64,000 nt of DNA. It comes from Thermoanaerobaculia bacterium (GTDB taxonomy: Bacteria > Acidobacteriota > Thermoanaerobaculia > Multivoradales > JAHEKO01). Both the position numbers and the translations under genes were made by a program. A model generated the notes under the pieces. That model saw nothing but the letters and a program-made list of their open reading frames with translations, was not told the DNA's origin and did not search any database. Location: the NCBI GenBank assembly GCA_041574955.1, contig JBFGNS010000001.1, positions 28,740 through 92,739 of the forward strand. The letters run 5' to 3'. Below, piece by piece: positions 9,299 through 35,565 of the stretch; the stretch's first letter is position 1; each line of letters begins with the position of its first letter.

Positions 9299-10290
9299 CC
9301 CGGCCGGTGGGCCGCGGCGCGCGCCTGCGGCCCGTCGGCCGCGAGGAGGTGCAGGGTCACGGTGTCGCCGCACGGTACCAGCGGCCCGAAGCCGCCGGCC
9401 GGGGCGCAGTCGAGCGGCTCGCCGGCGGCGCTCCAGCAGCTGTGGATCTCGAGCAGGCGGTCGGGGCGGGCGGCGTCGCAGTAGAGCCGCACCGTGCGCG
9501 GGTAGAGGGCCGCGAGGCGCGACCGCGCGACCGTGTCACCGGCCCAGCCGTCGACGGCAGCGGTGGCGTCGGCGATCCTGGCGGCGAGCTCCAGCCCGGT
9601 GGCGAAGTAGCGGAGCGCACCCTCGTCGCCGGGCTCTGTGAAGCAGGTGCCGTGCTTCTGCCACTCGTGGTTGAGCAGCTCGCAGACGGCGCCTTCGGCG
9701 ACGCCGTCGGGAGCGCTGCCGGCCGCCGGATCGGGCCACTCGGCGGCCAGCCGGGCGCGCAGCTCCGCCGGCCAGCGGGCCACCGCCGCGGGGTCGAGAG
9801 GCAGCGCCTCGCCGCAGCACTGGGGGAAGCCGGCGGTGTAGTTGGGCCACAGGCCGTGGATCGCCAGCCGCGCGGGCGTGCCGCGGCCGCAGCGAGCCTC
9901 GCCGCGGTGGGTGAGGGTGGTGTCGTAGCCGTCGGACAGTCCGGCGCAGAAGGTCGGCAGCCAGTGCTGCGAGAGCAGCAGGTAGTCGTAGTCGGCGGCA
10001 CCCGTCTTGGCGGCGCAGGCGGCGTCGCCCTCGTCGAAGCAGACGACCGCTGGCGGCCGGGCGACCGGCGAATCGGCGCGCACGCCGCAGATGTCGACGC
10101 AGCCGGAACCGTCGGCGCGCCAGCCGCCGGGATGGTCGAAGCCGGAGTCCGGCGGGCGCTCGGCCCGTTCTGCGGCGCCACAGGCGAGCGCGGTCGCGGT
10201 GAGTGCCGCGAGAGCCGCCAGACGGCTGCGCCGCCGCCGGTCGCTGCTGCGCGCCTCGGCGCCTGGCTGCGGTGGGCGGCTCAGCGCCGT
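9295..10290 (-). CDS. secreted ribonuclease T2 family lipoprotein (start codon unresolved)
   Basis: CAS I HGLWP and CAS II HEWQKHGTC motifs; signal LAALAALTATALAC; no ATG/GTG/TTG in frame before the signal peptide. Confidence 0.7.
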   Translation of the reverse strand, partial: TALSRPPQPGAEARSSDRRRRSRLAALAALTATALACGAAERAERPPDSGFDHPGGWRADGSGCVDICGVRADSPVARPPAVVCFDEGDAACAAKTGAADYDYLLLSQHWLPTFCAGLSDGYDTTLTHRGEARCGRGTPARLAIHGLWPNYTAGFPQCCGEALPLDPAAVARWPAELRARLAAEWPDPAAGSAPDGVAEGAVCELLNHEWQKHGTCFTEPGDEGALRYFATGLELAARIADATAAVDGWAGDTVARSRLAALYPRTVRLYCDAARPDRLLEIHSCWSAAGEPLDCAPAGGFGPLVPCGDTVTLHLLAADGPQARAAAHRPG

Positions 10291-11468
10291 CGCCGCCCCT
10301 GCTCGACGATCTGGCGCAGCCTGGCCGCGGGGTCGGCCACCTTGGCGAGGAAGATCATCGCCGCGATCACCGGCGGCTTGAAGCTCGCCTGGTGGTAGGT
10401 GTGCGGGATGTAGCGCTCGAACACCGGCCGGCTGACCTCGCCGCGCTCGCAGCTCAGGCCGCTGATGTCGGCCGGCAGGCAGTGCTGGTAGAGCGCCGAG
10501 CCTTCGCGGGTCAGGCCCATCCGGTCGTCGTCGCACTCCCAGGCCACGTGCTCGGCGTTCTCGGCCAGGCAGTCACGCTCGAGCTGCTTCAAACCGTCGC
10601 GGTCGCCGGCGTGCAGCAGGTCCCGCCGCCGCTCCATCACCGCCAGCGACGCCCACGACTTGGGGTAGACGACGTCGGCATCGCGGAAGGCGTCGTCCAT
10701 CGAGTCGACCACCTCGAAGCTGCCGCCGCTGGCGGCGGCGTTGCGCCCGGCCAGCTCGACCACGTCGGGCAGCAGGTCGTAGCCCGGAGGGTGGGCGAGG
10801 GTGACCCGCATCCCGAAGCGGCTCATCAGGGCGATCACCCCCTGCGGCACCGACAGCGGCTTGCCGTAGCTCGGCGAGTAGGCCCAGCTCATCGCGATCT
10901 TCTTGCCGCGCAGCTCGTCGACGCCGCCGAAGTAGTCGGCCAGCTTGGCCAGATCGGAGAGGCTCTGGGTCGGGTGGTCGAGGTCCGACTGCAGGTTGAC
11001 CACCACCGGTCGCTGGTGGAGCAGGCCCTGGCGGTGGCAGTCGGCCACGGCGTCCCGCACCTGGCGCTGATACCGGTCGCCCTCGCCGAGATAGAGGTCG
11101 TCCCGGATGCCGATCACCTCGGCCATGAAGCTGAGCATCGCCGCGGTCTCGCGCACCGTCTCGCCGTGGGCGATCTGGGACTTCTCCTCGTCGAGGCTCT
11201 CGACCGCCAGACCGAGAGCGTCGGCGGCCGAGGCGTAGCTGAAGCGGGTGCGGGTCGACTGATCGCGGAAGATCGAGATCGCCAGACCGCTGTCGAAGAT
11301 CCGGTAGGAGACGCCTTCGCGGTGTAGCCGGTCGAGGATGCCGGCGACCAGCAGGGTGGCGCGGACGTCGTCTTCGGTCTTCTCCCAGGTGAGCAGGAAG
11401 TCCTGCTCCAGCATCGCGGGGCGCAGCCGCTCCAGGGCCTCGATGTCGTGCAGCAGGGTGTCGGTCAT
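10281..11468 (-). CDS. ygeW: knotted carbamoyltransferase YgeW family (putative oxamate carbamoyltransferase)
   Basis: STRTR carbamoyl-phosphate motif, HPTQ, SMDDAF; start MTDTLLHDIEALERL; length about 395 aa as in YgeW. Confidence 0.8.
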   Translation of the reverse strand: MTDTLLHDIEALERLRPAMLEQDFLLTWEKTEDDVRATLLVAGILDRLHREGVSYRIFDSGLAISIFRDQSTRTRFSYASAADALGLAVESLDEEKSQIAHGETVRETAAMLSFMAEVIGIRDDLYLGEGDRYQRQVRDAVADCHRQGLLHQRPVVVNLQSDLDHPTQSLSDLAKLADYFGGVDELRGKKIAMSWAYSPSYGKPLSVPQGVIALMSRFGMRVTLAHPPGYDLLPDVVELAGRNAAASGGSFEVVDSMDDAFRDADVVYPKSWASLAVMERRRDLLHAGDRDGLKQLERDCLAENAEHVAWECDDDRMGLTREGSALYQHCLPADISGLSCERGEVSRPVFERYIPHTYHQASFKPPVIAAMIFLAKVADPAARLRQIVEQGRRRR

Positions 11469-13856: not shown

Positions 13857-16196
13857 TTACCTCTCTTTGCCGGCGGCCACACGGGGAGCCAGGCGCTGCT
13901 CGAGGTCGGCGATGGCGTTGAGCACCTCCTCGGGCGTCGCCGGCGCGTTGAGGTGCGGGCTCAGCCGGTGGTCGCCGACGCTGGCCACCGCGTCCTTGAT
14001 CGCCTGGAACGCTGAGATGGCTAGCATCAGCGGCGGCTCGCCGACCGCCTTCGAGCGGTGGATGGTCGGCTCGCGGTTGCGGCCCGACGGCAGCAGCTCG
14101 ACGTGGAACTCGTCGGGCAGGTCCGAGGCGACCGGGATCTTGTAGGTCGACGGCGCGTGGGTGCCCAGCTCGCCGTCGCCGTTCCACCACAGCTCCTCCG
14201 AGGTCAGCCAGCCCATCCCCTGGATGAAGCCGCCCTCGACCTGGCCGAGGTCGATCGCCGGATTGAGCGAGCGGCCGACGTCGTGCAGGATGTCCACCCG
14301 CAGGATTCGCGTCTCGCCGGTCAGCACGTCGATGATCGCCTCGGACACCGCGGCGCCGTAGGCGAAGTAGTAGAACGGACGGCCGGTCATCGTGCGGCGG
14401 TCGTAGTGGATCTTGGGCGTGCGGTAGAAGCCGGTGGCCGATAGCGGCACGCGCGCCAGCCAGGCGCGGTGGACGAGCTCGGCGAAGGTCGCCTCGGCGT
14501 CGCCGGCCTGCACCCGGCCGTCCTCGAACCGCACCTCGTCGGCCGCCACGCCGTGCTCGCGAGCGGCGAAGTCGGCCAGCCGTCCCCGCAGCTTGTGGGC
14601 GGCGGCCAGCGCCGCCATGCCGTTGAGGTCCGATCCCGATGAGGCCGCGGTGGCCGAGGCGTTGGGCACCTTCGAGGTGTCCGATGCGGTGCAGCGGACA
14701 TCGGCGACGTCGACTCCCAGCTCGTCGGCCACCACCTGCGCCACCTTGGTGAACAGCCCCTGGCCCATCTCGGTACCGCCGTGGTTGAGCATCACCGTGC
14801 CGTCGGTGTAGAGGTGGATGAGCGCGCCGGCCTGGTTGAAGTGGGTGGCGGTGAACGAGATGCCGAACTTGACCGGGGTGAGCGCGATGCCGCGCTTGAG
14901 CAGCCGGCTGCCGGCGTTGAACCGCTCGATATCGCGCCGCCGCCGGCGGTAGTCGGAGCTCTGCTCGAGCCGCGGCACGATTTCCTCGAGCAGGTTGTCC
15001 TCGACCTTCATCCGGTAGGGGGTCTCGTCGCGCTCGCCGACGCCGTAGAAGTTGGCGCGCCGCACGTCCAGCGGATCGATCCCCAGGTGACGGGCGATCT
15101 CGTCGACCACCGTTTCGATCGCCAGCATGCCCTGTGGGCCGCCGAAGCCGCGAAAGGCCGTGTTGGAAACCGTGTGGGTCTTGCACCGGTGCGAGACGAT
15201 CGATACGTTCTCGAGGTAGTAGGCGTTGTCGGAGTGGAAGATGGCGCGGTCGTTGACCGGGCCCGAGAGATCGGCCGACATGCCGCAGTTCGACGCCAGC
15301 TCGAGCTCGAGGCCGGCGATCACGCCGCGCTCGTCGAAGCCGACGTGGTAGTCGACGCGGAAGCCGTGCCGCTTGCCGGTCATGATCATGTCGGCATCGC
15401 GGTCCAGGCGCAGCTTGACCGGCCGGCCGATGCGGTCGGCGAGCAGCGCGGCGATGGCGGCGAACAGCGCCGGCTGCGTTTCCTTGCCGCCGAAGCCACC
15501 GCCCATCCGGCGGCACTCCACCACCACGTCGTTGGCGGTGCGGGCGAGCGCGTGGGCCACCACCATCTGCACCTCGCCGGGGTGCTGGGTCGAGCTGTAG
15601 ACCAGCATCTGGCCGTCCTCGCGCGGCAACGCGAAGGCGATCTGCCCCTCGAGGTAGAACTGGTCCTGCCCACCGATCCGCAGCCGGCCGCGCAGCCGGC
15701 GGGCGGCGCCGGCGATCGCGCCCCCGGCGTCGCCGCGCACGAGCCGCACGCTCGGCAGCACAAACGACTGCCGCGCCAGGGCGGTGTCGATGTCGAGGAT
15801 GGCCGGCAGGTCGTCGTACTCGATGACCGCTCGCCGCGCCGCTCGCCGCGCCAGATCGACACCGGTGGCGGCGACCGCGAACACCGACTGGCCGACGTAC
15901 TGCACCAGCCGGTCGGCAAAGATGGGGTCGTCTTTGAGCATGCCGCCGATGTCGTTGGCGCCGGGGATGTCGGTGGCGGTCATCACCTCGACCACGCCGG
16001 GTGAGCGTCGCACCGGCTCGAGGTCGAGCGAGCGGATGCGAGCGTGCGGCCGCGCGCTGGTGCCGACGGCGGCGTGCAGGGTGCCGGCGGGTTCGGGCAG
16101 GTCGTCGGCGTAGTCGGCGCCGCCGCTGACGTGCAGGTGGGCGCTCTCGTGGGGCAGCGGCGTCCCGACGCGGCCCGGTCTGTCGTCTCGGCTCAC
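13857..16196 (-). CDS. xdhB: xanthine dehydrogenase molybdopterin-binding subunit
   Basis: Aldehyde oxidase/xanthine DH a/b hammerhead and MoCo-binding pattern (GGGFGGK); ATGA overlap with upstream xdhA. Confidence 0.85.
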   Translation of the reverse strand: MSRDDRPGRVGTPLPHESAHLHVSGGADYADDLPEPAGTLHAAVGTSARPHARIRSLDLEPVRRSPGVVEVMTATDIPGANDIGGMLKDDPIFADRLVQYVGQSVFAVAATGVDLARRAARRAVIEYDDLPAILDIDTALARQSFVLPSVRLVRGDAGGAIAGAARRLRGRLRIGGQDQFYLEGQIAFALPREDGQMLVYSSTQHPGEVQMVVAHALARTANDVVVECRRMGGGFGGKETQPALFAAIAALLADRIGRPVKLRLDRDADMIMTGKRHGFRVDYHVGFDERGVIAGLELELASNCGMSADLSGPVNDRAIFHSDNAYYLENVSIVSHRCKTHTVSNTAFRGFGGPQGMLAIETVVDEIARHLGIDPLDVRRANFYGVGERDETPYRMKVEDNLLEEIVPRLEQSSDYRRRRRDIERFNAGSRLLKRGIALTPVKFGISFTATHFNQAGALIHLYTDGTVMLNHGGTEMGQGLFTKVAQVVADELGVDVADVRCTASDTSKVPNASATAASSGSDLNGMAALAAAHKLRGRLADFAAREHGVAADEVRFEDGRVQAGDAEATFAELVHRAWLARVPLSATGFYRTPKIHYDRRTMTGRPFYYFAYGAAVSEAIIDVLTGETRILRVDILHDVGRSLNPAIDLGQVEGGFIQGMGWLTSEELWWNGDGELGTHAPSTYKIPVASDLPDEFHVELLPSGRNREPTIHRSKAVGEPPLMLAISAFQAIKDAVASVGDHRLSPHLNAPATPEEVLNAIADLEQRLAPRVAAGKER

Positions 16197-17755
16197 GGCT
16201 GGGCTCCGTATTCGAGTATCCGGGTGGCGCCGTCGAGGGCACTACCGTCGGGGCCGGCAGTCTCGTAGAAGAACTTGCGCAGCAGGTTGCGCGCCACCTG
16301 CCGGCGGTAGCCGCGGCTGGCCCGCATGTCGCTGATCGGTGTGAAGTCGGCGTCGAGCGCCTCCAGGCCGGCGGCGACCGCCTCCTCGCTCCAGCGAGCG
16401 CCCTCGATCGCCTGCTCGCACCGCCGCGCTCGCTCGGGCGTCGCCGACATGCCGCCGAAACCGATGCGGACGTCGCGCGCCCGGCCGTCCTCGAGCCGCA
16501 GGCAGAACGCCGCGCACACCGCCGAGATGTCCTGGTCGAACCGCTTCGAGATCTTGTAGGCGCGGAACAGACGGTCCGGTGGGGTGAGCGGTATACGCAC
16601 CCGCTCGAGCAACTCGCCCGGCTCGAGGGCGGTCCGGCGGTAGCCGAGGTAGAACTCGTCGAGCGGCAGCTCGCGGCGTCGCTCGCCGCGAACCAGCACC
16701 ACGCTGGCGTCGAGCGCCAGCAGCGCCGGCATCGAGTCGCCGATCGGCGAGCCGTTGACGACGTTGCCGCCGAGGGTCGCGGCGTTGCGGATCGGCGGCG
16801 AGGCGAAGCGCCGTAGCAGCTCGCCGAAGTCGGGGAACCGCTCGGCCAGCTCCCGGTAGGTGTCGGTCAGGGTGACGGCGGCGCCGATCTCGAGGTGGCC
16901 GTCGGTCACCTCCAGCCGGCGCAGCTCCTCGACGTTGCCGACGTAGATCGTCTGCTCGATCTGCCGCAGCTCCTTGGTGATCCACAGGCCGACGTCGGTG
17001 CAGCCCGCCACCAGCCGGGCGTCGGGATGCCGCTCGGCCAGCTCGGTCAGCTCGGCCAGCCGGGTGGGCGCCCAGTAGCGGTGCTCGCCGCCGCCCGCCG
17101 CCGGGGCGGCGAGCTCGAGGCACCGGCGCCGGCCGAGGCCGCGCAGCCGCTCGACCAGCTCGCGCTCGTCGGCGCCGGGCTGTCCGCCCGGATCTGCCGG
17201 CGCGTGCAGCCAGTGGCCGTTGGCGCTCCGCCCGCGCTCGTACATCGCCCGCGCGGCGTCGAGAATCGGCCGGTAGCCGGTGCAGCGGCACAGGTTGCCG
17301 GCCAGCACGTCGCGGATACGCCGGCGGTCGGGATCGCGCTCGGACTTGTAGAGCGCGAACAGCGACATGACGAAGCCCGGCGTGCAGAAGCCGCACTGCG
17401 AGCCGTGGCAGTCGACCATCGCCCGCTGCACCGGATGCAGCTCGCCGTCGGGCGAGACCAGCGACTCGACGGTCACCAGGAGCTTGCCGTCGAGCGTCGG
17501 CAGCAGCTGGATGCAGGAGTTGAGGGCGCGGAAGCGGAGGCGGTCGCCGTCGAGCTCTCCAACCACCACCGTGCAGGCGCCGCAGTCGCCCTCGGCGCAG
17601 CCCTCCTTGGTGCCGGTGCGGCGCAGGTGCTCGCGCAGGTAGGTCAGGACCGTGGTGTTCGGGTCGAGGCCCGAGACCGCGTGGAGCTCGCCGTCGAGCA
17701 GAAAACGGACCGTGCCGCCGGGCTCGTCGGCTTCGGCCTGATTCGCCGCCGTCAT
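16193..17755 (-). CDS. xdhA: xanthine dehydrogenase small subunit ([2Fe-2S] + FAD-binding)
   Basis: CAEGDCGACTV and CGFCTPG/CRCTGY [2Fe-2S] motifs, CO-dehydrogenase flavoprotein domain; GGAGGAGG SD before ATG 17755. Confidence 0.85.
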   Translation of the reverse strand: MTAANQAEADEPGGTVRFLLDGELHAVSGLDPNTTVLTYLREHLRRTGTKEGCAEGDCGACTVVVGELDGDRLRFRALNSCIQLLPTLDGKLLVTVESLVSPDGELHPVQRAMVDCHGSQCGFCTPGFVMSLFALYKSERDPDRRRIRDVLAGNLCRCTGYRPILDAARAMYERGRSANGHWLHAPADPGGQPGADERELVERLRGLGRRRCLELAAPAAGGGEHRYWAPTRLAELTELAERHPDARLVAGCTDVGLWITKELRQIEQTIYVGNVEELRRLEVTDGHLEIGAAVTLTDTYRELAERFPDFGELLRRFASPPIRNAATLGGNVVNGSPIGDSMPALLALDASVVLVRGERRRELPLDEFYLGYRRTALEPGELLERVRIPLTPPDRLFRAYKISKRFDQDISAVCAAFCLRLEDGRARDVRIGFGGMSATPERARRCEQAIEGARWSEEAVAAGLEALDADFTPISDMRASRGYRRQVARNLLRKFFYETAGPDGSALDGATRILEYGAQP

Positions 17756-17845
17756 GGTGTCGCCTCCTCCGGACAGCACGCCAGGGAGTCGAGAAGGCTG
17801 TCGGGAGTATAGCGCCAGCCGGCGCGCTCCGGCTGCCCGCCTCGA

Positions 17846-19153
17846 CTAGCCGCCGGTGCGGACGGTGTAGAAGACGATCAGCAACGCGCCCAGCAGGTAC
17901 ATCAGCGGGTGGATGTCGCGGAAGCGGCCGCGCAGCAGCTTGATCGCCACCCAGGAGACGATGCCGAAGCTGATGCCGTTGGCGATCGAGTAGGTGAACG
18001 GCATGGTCGCGGCGGTCAGGAAGGCCGGCACCGCCTCGTCGATCCGCGACCAGTCGATCTCGCGCGCGCCCTGCATCATCAGCGCACCGACCACGATCAG
18101 CGCCGGCGCGGTGGCGAAGGCGGGCACCGCGGTGAACAGCGGCGTCAGGAACAGCGACAGCAGGAACAGCAATCCGACCACCACCGCGGTCAGGCCGGTG
18201 CGACCGCCCTCCTCGACGCCGGTGGCCGACTCGACGTAGCTGGTGACCGTGCTGGTGCCCACCGCCGCCCCGACCATGGTGCCGACGGCGTCGGCCGCGA
18301 ACGCCCGCTCGGAGCGCGGCAGCTCGCCCCGCTTGTCGACGAAGCCGGCCAGCCGGCCGACGCCGATCAGCGTACCGGCGGTGTCGAAGATGTCGACGAA
18401 CAGGAACGCCAGCACCACCAGCAGCAGCTTGCCGGTCATCAGGCCGGAGAAGTCGAGAGCGAAGAGCGTCTCCTCGGGCAGCCCCGGCCAGCTGACGAGC
18501 TGGACGGGGGGCGCGATGATCCCGGCTCCCCAGGCGATGCCGGTAACGCCCAGGATGCCGATAAGGATCGCACCCCTTACGCGCGCCGACATCAGCACCG
18601 CCATCACCACCAGCCCGGCGAGCGCCAGCAGGGCGGTCGCGGCATGCACGTCGCCCAGGGTCACCAGCGTCGCCGGGTGGTCGACCACCAGGCCGGCGTT
18701 CTGGAAGCCGATGATCGCCAGGAACAGGCCGATGCCGCTCATGGTGGCGATCTTGATCGACTGCGGGATGGCGCGCAGCAGGGCGGTGCGCACCCCGGTC
18801 AGCGCCAGCACCAGGAACAGCGCCCCCTCGACGAAGACAGCCGCCAGCGCCACCTGCCAGGAGATCCCCATGCCGAGCACGACGCCGAAGGTGAAGTAGG
18901 CGTTCAGACCCATGCCGGGCGCCAGCGCGAACGGGTAGTTGGCCAGCAGGCCCATCGCCAGGGTGGCGGCGGCCGAGGCCAGAGCGGTGGCGACCGCCAC
19001 GTCGCTCGCCGGCAGGCCGGCCTGCGACAGGATCTGCGGGTTGACGAACAGGATGTAGGACATGGTGAGGAAGGTCACCACGCCCGCCCGCACCTCGGTG
19101 GCCACCGAGCTGCCCTGGGCCTCGATCCGGAACCACCGTTCCAGCACGCTCAC
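17846..19153 (-). CDS. pbuG: NCS2 family purine permease (AzgA/PbuG-like adenine/guanine/hypoxanthine permease)
   Basis: VLERWFRIEAQGSSVATEVRAGVVTFLTMSYILFVNPQIL typical AzgA N-terminus; GTG start 19153 (or 19147) inferred. Confidence 0.75.
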   Translation of the reverse strand: MSVLERWFRIEAQGSSVATEVRAGVVTFLTMSYILFVNPQILSQAGLPASDVAVATALASAAATLAMGLLANYPFALAPGMGLNAYFTFGVVLGMGISWQVALAAVFVEGALFLVLALTGVRTALLRAIPQSIKIATMSGIGLFLAIIGFQNAGLVVDHPATLVTLGDVHAATALLALAGLVVMAVLMSARVRGAILIGILGVTGIAWGAGIIAPPVQLVSWPGLPEETLFALDFSGLMTGKLLLVVLAFLFVDIFDTAGTLIGVGRLAGFVDKRGELPRSERAFAADAVGTMVGAAVGTSTVTSYVESATGVEEGGRTGLTAVVVGLLFLLSLFLTPLFTAVPAFATAPALIVVGALMMQGAREIDWSRIDEAVPAFLTAATMPFTYSIANGISFGIVSWVAIKLLRGRFRDIHPLMYLLGALLIVFYTVRTGG

Positions 19154-19159
19154 GGAGTG

Positions 19160-19175
19160 GCGATTATACCTCCGG
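19160..19175 (-). promoter_or_regulatory. candidate -10 box (TATAAT) plus GGAGG immediately upstream of pbuG-like start
   Basis: GGAGGTATAATCGCCACTCCGTG on minus strand; TATAAT 10 nt before GTG suggests near-leaderless transcript. Confidence 0.3.
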
Positions 19176-19213
19176 CGCCGGGCGTCGGCGGTGAGGGGGC
19201 TTGAGGCTTCGGG

Positions 19214-19290
19214 CCGGGTGCGCTGGGCGGTCGGGGCCCGGGGCTGCGCTCCAAAGGCGAGGGTGATGTCGCTCCGCCCCGGGCCCCCGC
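19214..19290. repeat. about 75-bp conserved element, copy A (inverted relative to copy B at 23152-23225)
   Basis: ctgcgctccaa(a/t)ggcgagggtgatgtcgctccgccc(c)gggcccccgc shared with reverse complement of 23152-23225; about 85% identity over about 75 bp. Confidence 0.8.
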
Positions 19291-19452
19291 GCGGTTGGCG
19301 CACCCTCCGGGGGGGTGGCTGAGGAGCGGCGGTCGCTTCGAGGGGCAGCGAGATCCGGGGCTACCTCCTGCTATGCTGACTTCGTTCCCTCAGCGATGGC
19401 CCGCGCTCCCCGGGCGAGTGCCTCGTCAGGCTGGAGGCGGGCGGCCGAGCCG

Positions 19453-21507
19453 ATGCCCGATCTGATCCCGTATCCCTTCCCGGCACTGGTCGAGCACATG
19501 CTCGACGGGCTCGAGCGGCAGGGCGAGATCTTCCATCTGCCGGCGGGCAAGTTCGTGCGCGGTCTGGACGGGCTGGACCTGTCGGTCGACTTCCACGGCC
19601 ACCCGGTGTCGAGCCCGCTGGGGCCCGCCGCCGGGCCGCAGACCCAGATGGCCCAGAACATCGTGCTCTCCTGGCTCGGCGGCTGCCGCGTGATGGAGCT
19701 CAAAACGGTCCAGATCCTCGACGAGCTGCACATCCCGCGGCCGTGCATCGATGTCCACCAGGTCGGCCTGAACGCCGAGTGGTCGCAGGAGCTCAAGCTC
19801 GAGGAGTCGCTCGAGGAGTACGTCAAGGGCGCCATGCTGGTCGAGATGCTGCGCTCGGGCGAGGTGGCGCCGGCGGCGGGGTTCGGCTCGGTGGTCTACG
19901 ACATGAGCGTCGGCTACGACCTGCACGGCATCCGCAGCCGGCGGGTGCTCGAGTTCATCGACGCCATGCGCGACGCGACGCCGATCGTCGACCGGCTGCG
20001 TCGCCAGATCCCCGACCGCTTCAAGCGGCTGCGCGACCTCGACTACCCGACGCGGCTGTCGGACAGCATCACCCTGAGCACCTTCCACGGCTGTCCGCCG
20101 GACGAGATCGAGAAGATCATGGAGTTTCTGTTGCGCGACCTCGGGGTGCACGCCATCGTCAAGTTCAACCCGATGCTGCTCGGACCCGAGCGGGCACGCT
20201 GGCTGCTGCACGACACCCTGGGCTACGACGATCTGGCGATCCCGGACTCGGCCTTCGAGCGCGACACCACGTGGCCGCAGGCGGTGGGTATCGTCGAGCG
20301 GCTGGGCGAGCTGGCCGCCGAGCTCGGGCTCGGCTTCGGCGCCAAGTTCAGCAACACCATGATCGTCGAGAACCGGCGCGGCTTCCTGGCCCCGGGGGTG
20401 GAGGAGGTCTACCTCTCCGGCCAGCCGCTGCACGTCCTGGCGGTGCATCTGGTGCGCCGCTTCCGCCGGGTGTTCGGCGACCGCTACCCGATCTCGTTCG
20501 CCGCCGGCGTCGACCGCGGCAACTTTCCCGACGCCGTGGCGCTCGGGCTGGTGCCGATCACCGTCTGCACCGACCTGCTGCGCAAGGGCGGCTACGGCCG
20601 GCTGCGCGGCTACCACTCCGAGCTGGCGCGGCGCATGCGCGAGCTGGGGGCCGCCAGCGTCGAGCAGTTCACACTGCTGGCCTACGGCGAGGCGGAGCCG
20701 GCGCTGGCCGCGCTCGATCCGACGCCGTCCGGCGAGCGGCTCGAGCGCTGCCGTCGTGCGCTGGCCGAGGGCGGCGATCTGCGGCAGGCGGCGGGCGACG
20801 AGCTGTTCGAGCGCTGGGTCTCGGCCGCGCGCCTGCGCAACACCGAGCGGTATGTCGACCAGGCCACCGCCGATCCACGCTACACGCGTGTCGGCGTCGA
20901 CCCGCCGCCCCGCAAGATCGGCAGCCACCTGGAGCTGTTCGACTGCGTGACCTGCGACATCTGCGTGCCGGTGTGCCCCAACGACGCCAACTTCACCTTC
21001 GGCAGCGAGCAGCGCCAGATCGCGGTGGCGCGCGCCGTGCCCGACGGCGGTGGCTGGCGGTGGCACCACGGCGAGCCGCTCGAGCTCGAGCGCCGCCACC
21101 AGATCGGCAACTTCTACGACTTCTGCAACGACTGCGGTAACTGCGACATCTTCTGCCCCGAGGACGGCGGCCCGTACGTCATCAAGCCGCGCTTCTTCGG
21201 CCACGAGGAGGCCTGGCGGCAGTTCCGGCATCTCGACGGTTTCGTGCTGGCGCGCGGCGGCGACGGCGACCGGGTGCTCGGCCGGTTCGGCGGGCGTGAG
21301 TTCCGGCTCGAGACGGCGGGTGGGAGGATACGCTACGCGGGGCCCGGCTTCGCCGTCGAGTTCGACGCCGGCTCGCCCGAGGAGACCTTGCGGGGCGAAG
21401 CGCGTGGCGAGGTCGACCTGACCTACTGCCACATCATGGACTACCTCAGGCGTTCCATCCTGGACTCGCCACAGGTAACCTACGTCGCCAGCCTGGCCGC
21501 GCGCTAG
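19453..21507 (+). CDS. Fe-S oxidoreductase with DHODH/DPD-like TIM-barrel region and 2x[4Fe-4S] ferredoxin motifs (possibly YgfK-N-terminal-like)
   Basis: FHGCPPDE...FNPML (DHODH-like), CVTCDICVPVCPND and CNDCGNCDIFCPEDGGP cluster motifs; embedded in the purine cluster. Confidence 0.5.
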   Translation: MPDLIPYPFPALVEHMLDGLERQGEIFHLPAGKFVRGLDGLDLSVDFHGHPVSSPLGPAAGPQTQMAQNIVLSWLGGCRVMELKTVQILDELHIPRPCIDVHQVGLNAEWSQELKLEESLEEYVKGAMLVEMLRSGEVAPAAGFGSVVYDMSVGYDLHGIRSRRVLEFIDAMRDATPIVDRLRRQIPDRFKRLRDLDYPTRLSDSITLSTFHGCPPDEIEKIMEFLLRDLGVHAIVKFNPMLLGPERARWLLHDTLGYDDLAIPDSAFERDTTWPQAVGIVERLGELAAELGLGFGAKFSNTMIVENRRGFLAPGVEEVYLSGQPLHVLAVHLVRRFRRVFGDRYPISFAAGVDRGNFPDAVALGLVPITVCTDLLRKGGYGRLRGYHSELARRMRELGAASVEQFTLLAYGEAEPALAALDPTPSGERLERCRRALAEGGDLRQAAGDELFERWVSAARLRNTERYVDQATADPRYTRVGVDPPPRKIGSHLELFDCVTCDICVPVCPNDANFTFGSEQRQIAVARAVPDGGGWRWHHGEPLELERRHQIGNFYDFCNDCGNCDIFCPEDGGPYVIKPRFFGHEEAWRQFRHLDGFVLARGGDGDRVLGRFGGREFRLETAGGRIRYAGPGFAVEFDAGSPEETLRGEARGEVDLTYCHIMDYLRRSILDSPQVTYVASLAAR

Positions 21508-21578
21508 GCGCCTTGCGAGGACGGGCCGGCAGGCGGGCGCACGGCGCCCGGCGCGGCCGCGAAAGGAGACTAGCGTTG

Positions 21579-23096
21579 GACGACAAGATCCGGGAGCTGG
21601 CCGACGGCTCGACAGCGCTGGCGGTCGAGATCCTGCGCGAGGCGATCCGGCTGCCGGCCGACTACGTCGAGCGCGCGCTGGAGGACGGCGGCGATCCGGC
21701 TTGCGGCCTGTCGAACCACGAGAAGCCACGGCTCGAGTACCTGCGCCGCACGATCGTCGAGATCGGCGCCGTCGACCGGCCCGAGGACGTCGGCTACGAC
21801 GCATTCGGCAACCTGCGCTGGACGGTCGAGGACCCGGCCGACGGCGTTGCCGATTCCGACAAGACGGTGGTCTACCTCGACGGCCATACCGACACCGTCA
21901 AGGCGCTGCGTCCACGGTGGCACGAGACGATCGGCGGCGGCATCGACGCTTACGACGGGCTGACGGACCCGCGGTGCGTGGACCGCGAGTTCCTGCGCCG
22001 TGAGCTCGGCTACCTGCCGCCGGACGACGAGTGGCGGCACCTGGTGTGGGGACGCGGCGCGGCCGACCAGCTCGCCGGCGTCGTCTGCCAGATGCTGGCC
22101 ACCCGGCTGCTGCGCGAGCTGCGGGCCGAAGGCGCGCTGGCCGGGGTGGCGGTGCGCAGCTACGCCACCGTCGCCGAGGAGGACAACGACGGTGGCGGGC
22201 CGATGCACCTGATGCGCCGCCAGCTGCCGGCGGCGCCGCCGGCGCTGCTGCCCGACGTCTTCCTGCTGAGCGAGCCCACCGGGTCGGCGAGCGAGGGCGC
22301 GCTGGGGATCTACCGCGGGCAGCGCGGTCGGATGCAGATCGAGGTCGAGGTCACCGGCAAGAGCTGCCACGGCTCGATGCCGTGGGAGGGGCGCAACCCG
22401 CTCGAGCACGGGGCGTCGATCCTGGCCGAGGCCGCCGCCTACGCCGCCGGCGACGGCTTCGCGCGCGACGAGTTCCTCGGGCCCGGTACCCGTACCGCCA
22501 GCTGGGCGGTGCTGGAGACCCCGTCCGACTGCGCGGTGCCCGAGCGGTTCACCTTCCGCTTCGACCGCCGGTTGACCACCGGCGAGGATCCCGAGCGGGC
22601 GCTGGCCGACGTCGAGCAGCTGCCGGCGGTCGAGCGGGCGCGGCAGGACGGCCTGGTGGTGGAGGTGCGGGCGCCGCTCTACGACGAGCCCACCTGGTGC
22701 GGCCAGCGACCCGGCAACCCGCAGATCTACCCCGGCTGGGTGACCCCCGCCGAGCACCCGGCGATCGCGGCGGCGCTCGAGACCTACCGCCGGGTGGTGA
22801 CCCCCGGCGTGGCGCGCGACGCGCCGGCCGGTGGCATGCGGCGCGAGCCGCGGCTGTCACGCTGGACCTTCTCGACCGACGGCGTCGGCGTGCCGGTGGA
22901 GCAGGGCTCGCTGGCGGTGCCGGAGGAGAAGAACTGGGTGACGGCCGGCCGTTTCACCCATCCCGCGATGTTCGGCTTCGGTCCCGGCATCGAGCAGAAC
23001 ACGCACAAGATCGGCGAGTGCGTCGACGGCCGCGAGCTGGCGCCGGTGATCGCGTTCTACGCGCGCTATCCGAGCCTGTACCGGGGGTGGAGGTAG
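21579..23096 (+). CDS. M20 family peptidase (YgeY-like)
   Basis: LDGHTDTVK (HxDTV M20 motif); TTG start with AAAGGAG 7 nt upstream; cluster context. Confidence 0.65.
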   Translation, partial: DDKIRELADGSTALAVEILREAIRLPADYVERALEDGGDPACGLSNHEKPRLEYLRRTIVEIGAVDRPEDVGYDAFGNLRWTVEDPADGVADSDKTVVYLDGHTDTVKALRPRWHETIGGGIDAYDGLTDPRCVDREFLRRELGYLPPDDEWRHLVWGRGAADQLAGVVCQMLATRLLRELRAEGALAGVAVRSYATVAEEDNDGGGPMHLMRRQLPAAPPALLPDVFLLSEPTGSASEGALGIYRGQRGRMQIEVEVTGKSCHGSMPWEGRNPLEHGASILAEAAAYAAGDGFARDEFLGPGTRTASWAVLETPSDCAVPERFTFRFDRRLTTGEDPERALADVEQLPAVERARQDGLVVEVRAPLYDEPTWCGQRPGNPQIYPGWVTPAEHPAIAAALETYRRVVTPGVARDAPAGGMRREPRLSRWTFSTDGVGVPVEQGSLAVPEEKNWVTAGRFTHPAMFGFGPGIEQNTHKIGECVDGRELAPVIAFYARYPSLYRGWR

Positions 23097-23151
23097 AAGG
23101 GCTGGGGGTCTTGTGGGCTCGGAGCAGTTCGCCGGGAGGGAGCGGCGGCCG

Positions 23152-23225
23152 GCGGGGGCCCGGGCGGAGCGACATCACCCTCGCCATTGGAGCGCAGCCG
23201 GGGCCACCGCTGGCCTAGCGACCGG
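23152..23225. repeat. about 75-bp conserved element, copy B (inverted copy of 19214-19290)
   Basis: Reverse complement aligns to copy A; lies between convergent M20 and deaminase genes. Confidence 0.8.
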
Positions 23226-23385
23226 GCTCTACTCCAAAGCACCTGCTACGCCTCTCACACCGTCAGTGCCAGCGCGGAGTCTGCTTGGCTTGGGGACCTG
23301 AGGGCCAGTCCCGCCATCGCGAGGGAGCCCGGAACCAGCTCTGCCGCGAGTGCCGCGCTCTGGCGCGCGCGAGCTCCCGTCGGCC

Positions 23386-23982
23386 TCATGGCAGCGGGAT
23401 CTGGCCGGCGGGCTTGACTGCCTGGTAGCGCGCCGACAGGTCGGCGTATATCGCCTCGATGCGGCGGACCTTCTCGCGCAGCGGATCGGCCCTGTCGCCG
23501 GGCAGGGCGGCGATCTCGGCGCGCAGGTCGTGTGCCTGCCAGTACGCATTGCGCCGCCGGTAGCGGCCCTCCGGCAGGTCGAACACCTGGGCCAGGATGC
23601 GCAGGTCGTGCGGGATGGCGAAGCGGTCTCGCGAGTCCTCGTAGCCGAACAGGTAGTGGAAGTTGTCGAAGCCGGACCAGGTGATGGCCGAAAGGCACAG
23701 CGAGCACGGCTCGTGCGAGGCGAGAAAGAGGCAGTCGCCGGGAGCCGGACGCTCGGCCGCGGGCAGCCGCCACAGCCGGCGCACCGCCTCCACCTCGCCG
23801 TGCCACAGCGGGCAGTCGGTCTCCTGGTTGGTGGCGGCGATCACCAGCGACAGGTCGCTCTTGCGCAGCACCGCGGCGCCGAAGATCTTGTTGCCGGCGT
23901 CGACACCCTCGACGGTCAGCGGCACGACGTCGTGCTCTAGGACCTCGAGCAGGCGGGCGATCCGCTCGCTGTCCGTCGGCAT
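23386..23982 (-). CDS. CDA-fold nucleotide/nucleobase deaminase (candidate guanine deaminase)
   Basis: HGEVEA (H-x-E) and PCSLC (PCxxC) zinc-binding motifs of cytidine/deoxycytidylate deaminase superfamily; 198 aa; start MPTDSERIARL. Confidence 0.65.
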   Translation of the reverse strand: MPTDSERIARLLEVLEHDVVPLTVEGVDAGNKIFGAAVLRKSDLSLVIAATNQETDCPLWHGEVEAVRRLWRLPAAERPAPGDCLFLASHEPCSLCLSAITWSGFDNFHYLFGYEDSRDRFAIPHDLRILAQVFDLPEGRYRRRNAYWQAHDLRAEIAALPGDRADPLREKVRRIEAIYADLSARYQAVKPAGQIPLP

Positions 23983-25212: not shown

Positions 25213-27837
<2,625 letters not shown>

Positions 27838-35383: not shown

Positions 35384-35442
35384 TGGCTTGAGGGCTCGAG
35401 GGCTTGGGCCTGGGGGCTTGAGCGGGCTCAGTCTGTCCCCCG

Positions 35443-35560
35443 GGGTGGAGGATGACGAGGCGACGGCCGGCGGTCACCGTCTCGAGCCGCTGCCGGCGCT
35501 CGTCCGGCCAGCTCAGCTCGAGCGTGGCGCTGGAGCTTGTGCCGAGGCCGAGCGCGGCCG
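35443..35560 (-). pseudogene. remnant C-terminal fragment of a CRTAC1/ASPIC-UnbV paralog
   Basis: About 100-bp near-identical direct repeat of 36911-37030; encodes LGLGTSSSATLELSWPDERRQRLETVTAGRRLVILHP matching the C-terminus of the intact downstream gene. Confidence 0.6.
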
Positions 35561-35565
35561 CCGGG

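What the first reader, a model, noticed from the sequence alone, without database searches (positions are those of the whole stretch)
19214..23225. Conserved ~75-bp inverted repeat pair bracketing the Fe-S protein / M20 peptidase module
Two non-coding copies (19214-19290 and the reverse complement of 23152-23225) share about 85% identity over about 75 bp, with core ctgcgctccaaNggcgagggtgatgtcgctccgcccgggcccccgc. Copy A lies in the divergent promoter region between pbuG and the Fe-S gene. Copy B lies between the convergent M20 and deaminase genes. No regulator gene is present in the island. The element could be a cis-regulatory RNA/operator, a REP-like element, or the inverted ends of a small mobilised cassette of about 4 kb.
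Basis: seen in the sequence. Interest (0 to 1): 0.7.

Follow-up and report, generated by a model that had tools for sequence, protein, structure and literature searches.

The report
Dispersed palindromic intergenic repeat, not regulator
The two inverted 75-bp copies are real, but they are two members of a lineage-specific, multi-copy hairpin-forming "junk-like" intergenic repeat (comparable to ERIC, Correia or REP elements) that landed in two old gene spacers, not a purine-specific switch or the ends of a mobile gene cassette.

Summary
The inverted pair is confirmed: arms 19221-19287 and 23154-23220, 67 nt at 84%, with a core of 49 nt at 96%. There is no third copy in the 64 kb.

Each copy is itself a roughly 100-110 nt imperfect palindrome with an invariant 37-nt apex (GGCGGAGCGACATCACCCTCGCCWTTGGAGCGCAGCC).

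The same element occurs at unrelated loci:
- upstream of an Rv2578c-type radical-SAM gene, in the window's own species and in a relative;
- upstream of a DUF2147 gene in that relative.

Two contigs of one MAG of the same species run through copy A and exit into different flanks, so I infer at least four copies per genome.

More distant relatives (68-76% protein identity) keep the same gene order at all three insertion sites. Their spacers are short (13-107 nt) and lack the element. It is therefore a recent insertion into ancestral spacers.

This argues against a purine operator or riboswitch and against cassette ends. Rfam gives no match, substitution covariation is zero, and no transposase, recombinase or regulator domain was found in the window genes scanned.

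Best reading: a new, low-to-moderate copy-number family of non-autonomous palindromic intergenic repeats in a Thermoanaerobaculia-like acidobacterium. This is ordinary in kind. The unusually conserved apex is the only intriguing feature.

The parts
19200..19310 (-). Copy A, hairpin module of the repeat (read on the minus strand it has the same orientation as copy B on the plus strand)
   Evidence: The nhmmer profile of 7 copies hits 19310->19200, E=5e-26. Internal arms 19216-19243 / 19278-19305 and 19233-19249 / 19271-19287. Folds as one long hairpin, -62.6 kcal/mol as RNA.
19242..19278 (-). Invariant 37-nt apex of copy A (GGCGGAGCGACATCACCCTCGCCTTTGGAGCGCAGCC on the minus strand)
   Evidence: 1 variable column of 37 across 7 copies, against 29 of 66 in the arms; Fisher p=2.8e-6. 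Alignments.
19311..19363 (-). Extension module specific to the copy-A-like subfamily (TAGCCCCGG...CCTCGAAGCGACCGCCGCTCC...). It is shared with another copy seen at the start of MAG contig L033.
   Evidence: The local alignment of the window spacer with L033 extends to TAGCCCC. The tail of L010 carries the same CCTTCGAAGCGA motif.
23128..23243 (+). Copy B, hairpin module of the repeat
   Evidence: nhmmer 23128-23243, E=4.5e-27. Folds as one long hairpin, -58.5 kcal/mol. Identical, bar one base, in MAG contigs L010 and L011.
23163..23199 (+). Invariant 37-nt apex of copy B (carries the only variable apex position: A instead of T at 23187)
19163..19168 (-). TATAAT box 9 nt upstream of the GTG start (19153) of the permease gene. 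Probably a promoter for a leaderless mRNA. The repeat lies upstream of it, not in a 5' UTR.
   Evidence: Sequence. The same TATAAT-then-start arrangement is seen in relatives L020 and L021. That it is a promoter is inference.
19372..19377 (+). Candidate extended -10 box (TGCTATGCT) of the YgfK-like gene, immediately outside the repeat
   Evidence: Sequence. Analogous TGGTAGCTT in L021. Inference only; the consensus scan found no full sigma-70 match.
19167..19173 (.). TACCTCC, the right-hand member of a 7-nt direct repeat (the other is at 19362-19368) that brackets the 195-nt insert between the two -10 boxes. Possible target duplication or microhomology.
   Evidence: Read from the sequence. Its significance was not established.
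19362..19368 (.). TACCTCC, the left-hand member of the 7-nt direct repeat
   Evidence: Read from the sequence.
17846..19153 (-). Flanking gene: xanthine/uracil-family (AzgA/PbuG-like) permease, 435 aa
   Evidence: Pfam PF00860. Exact protein found on MAG contig L033.
19453..21507 (+). Flanking gene: YgfK-like Fe-S protein, 684 aa
   Evidence: Pfam Fer4 domains. NCBIfam TIGR03315 Se_ygfK, 377 bits, below the cutoff; it covers the N-terminal part of the model only. Gene call in L010.
21576..23096 (+). Flanking gene: YgeY-like M20 hydrolase (the start could be as early as 21513)
   Evidence: Pfam M20 and M20_dimer. NCBIfam YgeY, 181 bits, below the cutoff. Called as a 507-aa gene in L010.
23386..23982 (-). 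Flanking gene: 198-aa cytidine/deoxycytidylate-deaminase-fold protein
   Evidence: Pfam PF00383. Exact protein on 23 contigs read (the index lists it in 77 blocks of the collection).

Best explanation
The two copies belong to a lineage-specific family of non-coding, non-autonomous, imperfect-palindrome intergenic repeats. It is the same kind of element as the enterobacterial ERIC/IRU, the neisserial Correia elements and REP/BIME repeats.

Structure (shown): the unit is about 100-110 nt, or about 160 nt in the copy-A-like subfamily. It is a long G+C-rich hairpin of roughly 12-22 bp of inner stem, with an additional 8-bp outer stem in the copy-A subfamily. The stem closes an invariant 37-nt apex that contains two GGAGCG half-sites.

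Distribution (shown): copies sit at unrelated loci, and I infer at least four in this species. They were inserted into ancestral short spacers at two divergent promoter regions and one convergent 3' region.

Consequences at the two window sites: at the pbuG|ygfK site a 195-nt insert now separates two -10 boxes that lie only about 20 nt apart in one relative (L021). At the ygeY|deaminase site the hairpin lies 56 nt and 160 nt downstream of the two stop codons.

Mechanism (inferred): the element spreads through a trans-acting enzyme encoded elsewhere in the genome, most plausibly one that recognises the hairpin or its apex, such as an HUH/Y1 RAYT- or TIRYT-type transposase. Gene conversion among copies is an additional or alternative route. 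If it has any effect on the neighbouring genes, that effect is generic: an RNA hairpin acting as a 3' barrier or processing site, and spacing or insulation of divergent promoters. It is not specific to purine metabolism.

The inverted orientation of the two window copies is incidental.
For: Repeat and palindrome:
- The inverted pair is confirmed.
- Each full copy folds into one long hairpin of -58 to -73 kcal/mol.
- 85.8% of the arm cells pair, against 27-50% when the partner is slid by 1-3 columns.

Presence at unrelated loci:
- L028 carries the element upstream of a DUF2147 gene. L030 carries it upstream of a radical-SAM gene. Only the element matches the window, at 92-93% over 75-96 nt.
- L034, from a MAG that is 99.7% identical to the window over the 10.3 kb they share (L011), starts inside the apex 124 nt upstream of the orthologous radical-SAM gene.

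More copies in the same genome:
- Contigs L010 and L033 of one MAG both traverse copy A and leave into flanks that differ from the window and from each other. Those flanks carry the extension-module motif.
- Eight Logan contigs from different runs end inside copy B. Five end exactly at 23170, the last 31-mer that still contains a copy-B-specific base.

Insertion into ancestral spacers:
- Relatives keep the gene order permease(-)|YgfK(+) ... YgeY(+)|(-) and fpg(-)|radical-SAM(+). Their spacers are 73-107, 13-60 and 77-101 nt.
- A profile search finds no hit in them.

No coding capacity or known family:
- A six-frame peptide query found nothing among 5.8 billion proteins.
- Rfam gave nothing.
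- Plasmid, phage and viral searches gave nothing.
Against: - Copy number could not be measured. There are only two copies in the 64 kb, none in a further 6.4 kb beyond the window or in the remaining 11 kb of L034. The family may therefore be small.
- The 20-mer core had no true hit among the 185,579 species-representative genomes. The source species seems not to be represented there, or the window is masked.
- No transposase was identified, and no clear target-site duplication was found.
- The conservation pattern is the opposite of a classical MITE, whose ends are conserved. Here the apex is invariant (1 of 37 columns vary) and the arms are variable but still pairing (29 of 66 columns vary, p=2.8e-6). 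This fits a functionally constrained hairpin tip and leaves room for a domesticated role.
- The two strains differ at 4 positions within the 100 nt of copy A, against about 0.2% genome-wide. All four changes increase pairing. That points either to selection for structure or to gene conversion or template switching.
Confidence: 0.75

Rival explanations
1. A domesticated structured element. The invariant 37-nt apex, presented on a long stem, is a recognition module bound by a protein (as RNA or as DNA). It was distributed by duplication into promoter regions and 3' regions, wiring several operons (reductive purine/urate catabolism, fpg / radical-SAM repair, DUF2147) into one response.
For: - The apex is far more conserved than the arms.
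- The arms differ between subfamilies by paired one-base indels: GGGG...CCCC versus GGG...CCC. They differ between strains by a G->T change plus an inserted A that together create a T-A pair.
- The apex can form a symmetrical irregular helix with tandem G.A/A.G mismatches (my reading of the fold).
- Three of the four located copies lie directly upstream of promoters in the same orientation: pbuG, radical-SAM and DUF2147.
Against: - No substitution covariation.
- Copy B has no co-directional downstream gene.
- The neighbouring genes have no evident common function.
- The element is missing from the orthologous promoters in relatives.
- The G and C runs in the arms are prone to slippage, which alone could make them faster-evolving.
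- Only about 5 independent copies were available.
Confidence: 0.15
2. A purine-responsive cis-regulatory element for this island: either an operator pair that allows DNA looping, or a riboswitch-like leader.
For: Both window copies lie inside a purine/urate catabolism cluster that has no regulator gene. Copy A lies between two divergent promoters.
Against: - Other copies sit at non-purine genes.
- Absent from orthologous spacers of relatives with the same cluster.
- In the pbuG orientation copy A lies upstream of the -10 box of a probably leaderless gene, so it is not in a 5' UTR.
- Copy B lies between two stop codons.
- Homology of at least 100 nt between the copies indicates duplication, not convergent operator sites.
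- No Rfam match.
Confidence: 0.03
3. The inverted repeats are the termini of a mobilised or invertible 3.9-kb ygfK-ygeY segment.
For: Two inverted copies exactly bracket a two-gene module.
Against: - Both junctions are ancestral. Permease|YgfK and YgeY|(deaminase-like)/XDH adjacency exists in relatives L020, L021 and L023 without the repeats.
- No transposase, integrase or invertase domain was found in the window genes scanned.
- Every contig that spans a junction has the window's orientation.
- The longest perfect identity between the arms is 21 nt, a poor substrate for homologous inversion.
Confidence: 0.03
4. Assembly artefact: the window is mis-joined through a repeat, so the inverted-pair geometry is not real.
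For: Short-read MAG contigs break or switch path at copy A.
Against: - Copy B, with both of its flanks, is reproduced in two independent MAG contigs.
- Each flank of copy A is reproduced in an independent contig.
- The permease|YgfK adjacency is conserved in relatives.
Confidence: 0.02

Closest known systems
ERIC / IRU (enterobacterial repetitive intergenic consensus, about 127 bp)
   Same: It is an imperfect palindrome of about 100-130 nt, strictly intergenic, and found at both promoter-proximal and 3' positions. Copy number is moderate. The centre is the best conserved part. Presence varies between related species at orthologous spacers. No coding capacity. (The ERIC properties are from my own knowledge: Hulton et al. 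1991; Wilson and Sharp 2006.)
   Different: There is no sequence similarity. The host phylum is different (an Acidobacteriota / Thermoanaerobaculia-like MAG). G+C content is far higher. The copy-A subfamily has an extra roughly 55-nt module and shows signs of head-to-tail arrangement.
Correia elements (Neisseria MITEs, 100-155 bp)
   Same: A non-autonomous hairpin-forming repeat inserted next to or between promoters and in 3' regions. It can move promoter elements apart or supply new ones, and when transcribed it forms a long hairpin.
   Different: Correia elements have well conserved 26-bp terminal inverted repeats, a TA target duplication and an IHF site. Here the termini are the least conserved part, no clear target duplication was found (only a 7-nt TACCTCC repeat at one site), and no IHF-like AT-rich core is present.
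REP / BIME repeats and REPINs mobilised by RAYT (IS200/IS605-like Y1 transposases); TIRYT-associated TIR repeats reported in Acidobacteria (PMC3733652)
   Same: Palindromic, extragenic and multi-copy, often between convergent genes. Hairpin shape is maintained while the stem sequence drifts. A trans-acting HUH enzyme that recognises the hairpin is the most plausible mobiliser.
   Different: Classical REPs are 20-40 nt with a GTAG or CGTC tag and short loops (PMC3733652). This element is about 100 nt with a 31-37-nt conserved apex and no consistent tag: GTAG precedes the extension module in copy A, but the L033 copy has CTAG. The GGGGWSAS motif described for TIRYT TIRs is not present. No RAYT or TIRYT gene could be searched for, because the genome is not available here.
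Riboswitches / cis-regulatory leaders of purine genes (for example the purine, xanthine/NMT1 and 8-oxoguanine classes)
   Same: Non-coding, structured, and next to a purine permease gene.
   Different: No Rfam match even at E<=10. The position is wrong (upstream of the -10 box, or between stop codons). It also occurs at unrelated genes, is not conserved in orthologous leaders, and shows no covariation.

Membership tests
Dispersed intergenic palindromic repeat (generic MITE/ERIC-like class) | Several copies at non-homologous loci in one genome | tested here: met
   Copies A and B are in the window. Copy C is on L034 in a MAG of the same species. At least one more copy is inferred from the divergent exits of L010 and L033. 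Further copies are present in a relative, on L028 and L030.
Dispersed intergenic palindromic repeat (generic MITE/ERIC-like class) | Presence/absence polymorphism at orthologous spacers of related genomes | tested here: met
   Absent from the short orthologous spacers in L020-L023, L035 and L036. The profile search gave no hit.
Dispersed intergenic palindromic repeat (generic MITE/ERIC-like class) | No coding capacity; self-complementary unit | tested here: met
   The six-frame peptide search found nothing. Long hairpin folds. 85.8% of arm cells paired.
MITE in the strict sense | Conserved terminal inverted repeats related to those of an autonomous IS | tested here: inconclusive
   The copy-A subfamily ends in GGGTGCGC...GCGCACCC. 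The copy-B subfamily ends pair poorly. The termini are the most variable part. No parent IS is known.
MITE in the strict sense | Target-site duplication | tested here: inconclusive
   Only a 7-nt TACCTCC direct repeat brackets the 195-nt insert at copy A. Nothing comparable was seen at copy B or on L028. No empty site in a close relative was available.
REP / REPIN (RAYT-mobilised) | 20-40-nt palindrome with a terminal GTAG or CGTC tag | tested here: not met
   The unit is about 100 nt and has no consistent tag. Definition taken from PMC3733652.
REP / REPIN (RAYT-mobilised) | A cognate RAYT/Y1 transposase gene in the genome, flanked by the repeat | not testable with these tools
   Only about 90 kb of this species could be read. 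No transposase domain was found in the window genes scanned.
REP / REPIN (RAYT-mobilised) | High copy number (tens to hundreds) | not testable with these tools
   The genome-collection scan returned only chance hits, so the species is apparently not represented. There are 2 copies in the 64 kb plus the adjacent 6.4 kb sampled without regard to the element. L034's remaining 11 kb adds none, but that contig was fetched because it carries the element.
Riboswitch / cis-regulatory RNA | Match to a curated RNA family, or covariation supporting a conserved fold | tested here: not met
   Rfam gathering and E<=10 scans both gave nothing at the element. 0 pairs show compensatory substitutions.
Riboswitch / cis-regulatory RNA | Consistent position in the 5' UTR of functionally related genes | tested here: not met
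   Copies A and C lie upstream of the -10/-35 boxes. Copy B lies between two stop codons. The neighbouring genes are unrelated in function.
Transcription-factor operator of the purine cluster | Short motif conserved in orthologous promoters; cognate regulator | tested here: not met
   Not present in orthologous promoters. Similarity between copies spans at least 100 nt. No regulator gene in the cluster.
Composite transposon / invertible segment | Recombinase or transposase present; the segment is absent, relocated or inverted in relatives or strains | tested here: not met
   No such domain was found in the window genes scanned. Both junctions are ancestral. Only one orientation was seen.

The most novel reading that the evidence does not exclude
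The element is a mobile hairpin whose invariant 37-nt apex has been co-opted as a binding module for an unknown protein or RNA partner. The apex carries two GGAGCG half-sites 23 nt apart and can form tandem G.A mismatches. Its spread into promoter regions and 3' regions would then have placed reductive purine/urate catabolism genes, the fpg / radical-SAM repair pair and other genes under one control in this Thermoanaerobaculia lineage. That would be a young, repeat-borne regulon caught in the act.
Probability: 0.1. Interest if true: 0.5.

Novelty: new member of a known kind. Interest (0 to 1): 0.2.

Why it matters
Practical value:
- It removes a tempting but wrong regulatory annotation from an uncharacterised acidobacterial version of the YgeW/YgeY/YgfK/SsnA/selenium-dependent XDH purine-urate cluster.
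- It probably contributes to short-read MAG contigs of this lineage breaking or switching path at these spacers.

Biological value is modest. It documents a previously undescribed repeat family in a poorly studied phylum. The family inserts precisely between back-to-back promoters and has an unusually conserved hairpin tip. If a cognate enzyme or binding protein is found, it would give a simple system for studying how hairpin repeats spread and are co-opted in high-G+C uncultured bacteria.

Tried and rejected
Searches that found nothing useful:
- Rfam at gathering thresholds over the whole window and at E<=10 over 18900-23600. No hit at either copy; the six weak hits elsewhere are chance.
- tRNA/tmRNA scan: none.
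- Fold z-scores of the 96-nt copies against dinucleotide shuffles are not significant in this 72% G+C context (z from -0.07 to -0.96). Thermodynamic stability alone therefore says nothing here.
- Exact 20-mer scan of 185,579 representative genomes: 9 hits, all chance, with no flank similarity.
- The same 20-mer in metagenome contigs: 9 hits, of which 2 are genuine.
- Two viral-contig scans: 0 hits.
- blastn against plasmids and phages: no match.
- Concatenated six-frame peptides of the element against 5.8 billion proteins, to catch spurious ORFs over other copies: nothing at E<=10.
- nhmmer profile (--max) over the window and all 40 loci: no diverged extra copies.
- Promoter and terminator consensus scans of both spacers: no hits. 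The element is therefore not a canonical intrinsic terminator (there is no T-run) and does not carry a full sigma-70 consensus.

Structure:
- RNAalifold proposed an alternative pairing of the 5' GGAGGG with the apex CCCTC, but without covariation.
- Pair counting on the long hairpin showed good pairing and zero compensatory substitutions.

Ideas considered and dropped:
- integron attC sites (those are direct repeats, with conserved stems and variable loops);
- DGR template/variable repeats and retron msr/msd (no reverse-transcriptase domain was found in the window genes scanned);
- a CRISPR remnant;
- a sigma-54 promoter in the apex (the GG-N10-GC spacing is not met);
- SECIS (the element is not in a coding frame).

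A covariance model was not built, because with four full-length copies it would add nothing beyond the HMM.

Full report
OBSERVATION

The reported inverted pair exists.
- The repeat finder gives arms 19221-19287 and 23154-23220, 67 nt, 84% complementary. It is the longest inverted repeat in the region and in the whole 64-kb window.
- A gapped alignment extends the similarity to about 115 nt.
- The central 49 nt are 96% identical, E=6e-16.
- The 24-nt core occurs exactly twice in the window even with three mismatches allowed, and never in 100 shuffles.

Copy A read on the minus strand has the same orientation as copy B read on the plus strand.

GENE CONTEXT

The window is 72% G+C.
- Copy A lies in a 299-nt spacer between a PbuG/AzgA-like permease (17846-19153, minus strand) and a 684-aa YgfK-like Fe-S protein (19453-21507, plus strand).
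- Copy B lies in a 289-nt spacer between the stop of a YgeY-like M20 hydrolase (23096) and the stop of a 198-aa deaminase-fold gene (23386).

The surrounding roughly 26 kb encodes:
- a selenium-dependent XDH (NCBIfam, above cutoff);
- YgeW (above cutoff);
- an SsnA-like amidohydrolase;
- a second XDH, carbamate kinase, two permeases and a Bmp/ABC nucleoside transporter.

This gene set matches the cluster recently assigned to reductive urate / 2,8-dioxopurine degradation. I base that on the titles and abstracts of bioRxiv 10.1101/2025.05.19.654654 and 10.1101/2025.04.24.650524; I did not read the papers in full.

No regulator domain was seen in the cluster. No transposase or recombinase domain was seen in the window genes scanned. 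The nearest homologues of the window's YgfK-like protein that carry a source name are labelled Acidobacteriota, and those of the radical-SAM protein Thermoanaerobaculia.

ANATOMY OF THE ELEMENT

Each copy is itself an imperfect palindrome.
- Tool-detected arms in copy A are 19216-19243 / 19278-19305 and 19233-19249 / 19271-19287.
- Each of four full-length copies folds into a single extended hairpin of about 100 nt, -58 to -73 kcal/mol as RNA and -28 to -41 kcal/mol as DNA.
- On the alignment, 85.8% of arm cells pair, against 27-50% when the partners are slid by 1-3 columns. No pair shows a compensatory substitution.
- Folding energies of the 96-nt copies are not better than shuffles in this G+C-rich background.

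The stem closes a 37-nt apex, GGCGGAGCGACATCACCCTCGCCWTTGGAGCGCAGCC. Only one of its 37 columns varies among seven copies, against 29 of 66 columns in the arms (Fisher p=2.8e-6).

Two subfamilies exist, one like copy A and one like copy B. They differ in the arms by matched one-base indels: GGGG-CCC-GGGG / CCCC-GGG-CCCC versus GGG-CCC-GGGGG / CC(A)CC-GGG-CCC.

A MAG contig (L010) that is 99.8% identical to the window over the 14.8 kb they share differs at four positions within the 100 nt of copy A. All four changes add base pairs. One of them is a G->T change matched by an inserted A, which creates a T-A pair.

The copy-A subfamily has an additional roughly 55-nt module (19311-19363). A degenerate, shortened repeat of this module seems to lie between the hairpin and the pbuG -10 box (the latter is my reading of the sequence).

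COPIES ELSEWHERE

- An exact 20-mer scan of 185,579 representative genomes gave only chance matches.
- The same 20-mer in metagenome contigs gave two genuine hits in one assembly (JABAOD01).
  - L028 has a copy-B-like element upstream of a DUF2147 gene.
  - L030 starts four bases before the apex. There a copy-A-like element is followed after 12 nt by TTGACA-17 nt-TAAACA and an Rv2578c-family radical-SAM gene.
  - Apart from the element, these contigs do not match the window.
- The closest homologue of that radical-SAM protein (92% identity) is encoded in MAG GCA_041609615.1. Another contig of that MAG (L011) is 99.7% identical to the window over 10.3 kb. Its radical-SAM contig, L034, also begins inside the apex, 124 nt upstream of the gene. 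The window's own species therefore has a third copy at a non-purine locus.
- In MAG GCA_041608635.1, contig L010 comes from the ygfK side and contig L033 comes from the pbuG side. Both run through copy A and then leave into sequences that differ from the window and from each other. Those sequences carry the extension-module motif CCTTCGAAGCGA. The simplest reading is that the assembler switched into other copies. This implies at least four copies and at least one head-to-tail arrangement.
- Eight Logan contigs from different runs end inside copy B. Five end exactly at 23170, the last 31-mer that still contains a copy-B-specific base. This would fit a graph branch caused by further copies if Logan contigs are built with k=31, which I recall but did not check. 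It is suggestive only.
- A profile search found no additional or degenerate copy in the window, in 6.4 kb beyond its right end, or in the rest of L034. The family is therefore not dense.

THE ELEMENT IS AN INSERTION INTO ANCESTRAL SPACERS

Relatives whose YgfK-like protein is 72-76% identical keep the order permease(-)|YgfK(+)...YgeY(+)|(-). Their spacers are 73-107 nt and 13-60 nt and contain no trace of the element.

Relatives whose radical-SAM protein is 68-69% identical keep fpg(-)|radical-SAM(+). They have the same TTGACA...TAAATA promoter, spacers of 77-101 nt, and no element.

In the window, 195 nt now lie between the pbuG TATAAT box (19163-19168, minus strand, 9 nt before the GTG start; the same arrangement is seen in the relatives, which suggests a leaderless mRNA) and the candidate ygfK extended -10 box (TGCTATGCT, 19369-19377). 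In relative L021 the equivalent boxes are about 20 nt apart. The insert is bracketed by a 7-nt direct repeat, TACCTCC (19167-19173 and 19362-19368). I could not decide whether this is a target duplication or microhomology.

INTERPRETATION

The findings are:
- at least 100 nt of homology between copies at unrelated loci;
- a self-complementary unit;
- strictly intergenic location, at both divergent and convergent spacers;
- presence/absence at orthologous sites;
- no coding capacity;
- no match in Rfam, plasmids, phages or viral contigs.

Together they define a dispersed, non-autonomous palindromic repeat of the ERIC / Correia / REP-BIME kind.

The purine-operator or riboswitch reading fails on four counts: distribution, position (upstream of the -10 box, or between two stop codons), lack of orthologous conservation, and lack of covariation.

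The cassette or invertible-segment reading fails because both junctions are ancestral, no recombinase domain was found in the window genes scanned, only one orientation is seen, and the longest perfect match between the arms is 21 nt.

A mis-assembly is unlikely. Copy B with both flanks, and each flank of copy A, are reproduced in independent contigs, and the gene adjacency is conserved in relatives.

MECHANISM

Shown: the repeat is a long hairpin-former with a conserved tip. It has multiplied within one lineage and has split two pairs of back-to-back promoters and one pair of convergent 3' ends.

Inferred:
- Mobilisation is by a trans-acting enzyme that reads the hairpin or its tip. An HUH/Y1 RAYT- or TIRYT-like transposase is the best precedent, and such enzymes with long TIR repeats are reported in Acidobacteria (PMC3733652). 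Gene conversion among copies is an additional or alternative route and would explain the locally elevated, pairing-improving strain differences.
- Any effect on neighbouring genes is generic: an RNA 3' hairpin barrier, or spacing of promoters.

The conserved apex is atypical for a classical MITE. It is the one feature that keeps a domesticated-function hypothesis alive, at roughly 10-15%.

COMPARISON WITH KNOWN FAMILIES, AND NOVELTY

The element works like ERIC or Correia elements. It fails the defining tests for a classical REP (size and tag) and for a riboswitch or operator. The strict MITE criteria (terminal inverted repeats, target-site duplication, parent IS) are inconclusive or untestable here. 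I file it as a new member (a new sequence family) of a known kind of element.

VERDICT

Interest is low (0.2).

Noticed in passing
window 35441-35564 and 36916-37039: A direct repeat of 124 nt at 92% identity. One copy lies just downstream of an unannotated 390-aa gene (35566-36738, minus strand). The other lies inside the 3' end of the FG-GAP/ASPIC gene (36905-39238, minus strand). This is possibly a partial gene duplication.
   Followed up: no
window 19151-19168 (minus strand); L020 9895-9915; L021 9929-9945: The PbuG-like permease gene has a perfect TATAAT box 8-9 nt upstream of its start codon, in the window and in relatives at about 75% protein identity. This suggests a conserved leaderless transcript.
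   Followed up: partly
window 8000-34000: A large purine/urate catabolism supercluster. It contains a selenium-dependent XDH (25213-27837, above the NCBIfam cutoff), a second XDH (13857-17779), YgeW (10281-11468, above cutoff), and YgeY-like, YgfK-like and SsnA-like genes (all below cutoffs). It also encodes carbamate kinase, two permeases and a Bmp/ABC transporter. The YgfK-like protein is only 684 aa and matches only the N-terminal part of the 1012-position model. In relatives ygeW sits between ygfK and ygeY; here it has moved about 9 kb away.
   Followed up: partly
window 19167-19173 and 19362-19368: A 7-nt direct repeat, TACCTCC, brackets exactly the 195 nt that separate the two divergent -10 boxes. 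It could be a target-site duplication of the repeat insertion, or microhomology used in its acquisition.
   Followed up: partly
L010 14673-14786 versus window 19200-19312: Copy A differs at 4 positions in about 100 nt between two strains that are otherwise 99.8% identical. All four changes make the hairpin more perfect. This hints at gene conversion among copies or at hairpin-templated mutation.
   Followed up: partly
L028 2925-2950 and 3120-3150: In the relative's contig the element is flanked on both sides by a different short repeat (…GTCCTGAGCGTAGCGAAGGATCTCAGC… and …GTCATCCCGAGCGCAGCGAGGGATCTCGGC…). From memory I recognise this as a motif common in soil-bacterial intergenic DNA. It is absent from the window.
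   Followed up: partly
window 23244-23385: About 140 nt of the ygeY|deaminase spacer, to the right of copy B, is non-coding and slightly lower in G+C. It matches nothing found here. The equivalent spacer in relative L020 is only 60 nt in total, so this stretch is also extra sequence of unknown origin.
   Followed up: no
window 22163-22197: A perfect 11-bp-stem hairpin inside the M20 coding region gave the best, still far sub-threshold, Rfam hit: EAV_LTH, 23 bits against a gathering score of 70. I treat it as chance.
   Followed up: no
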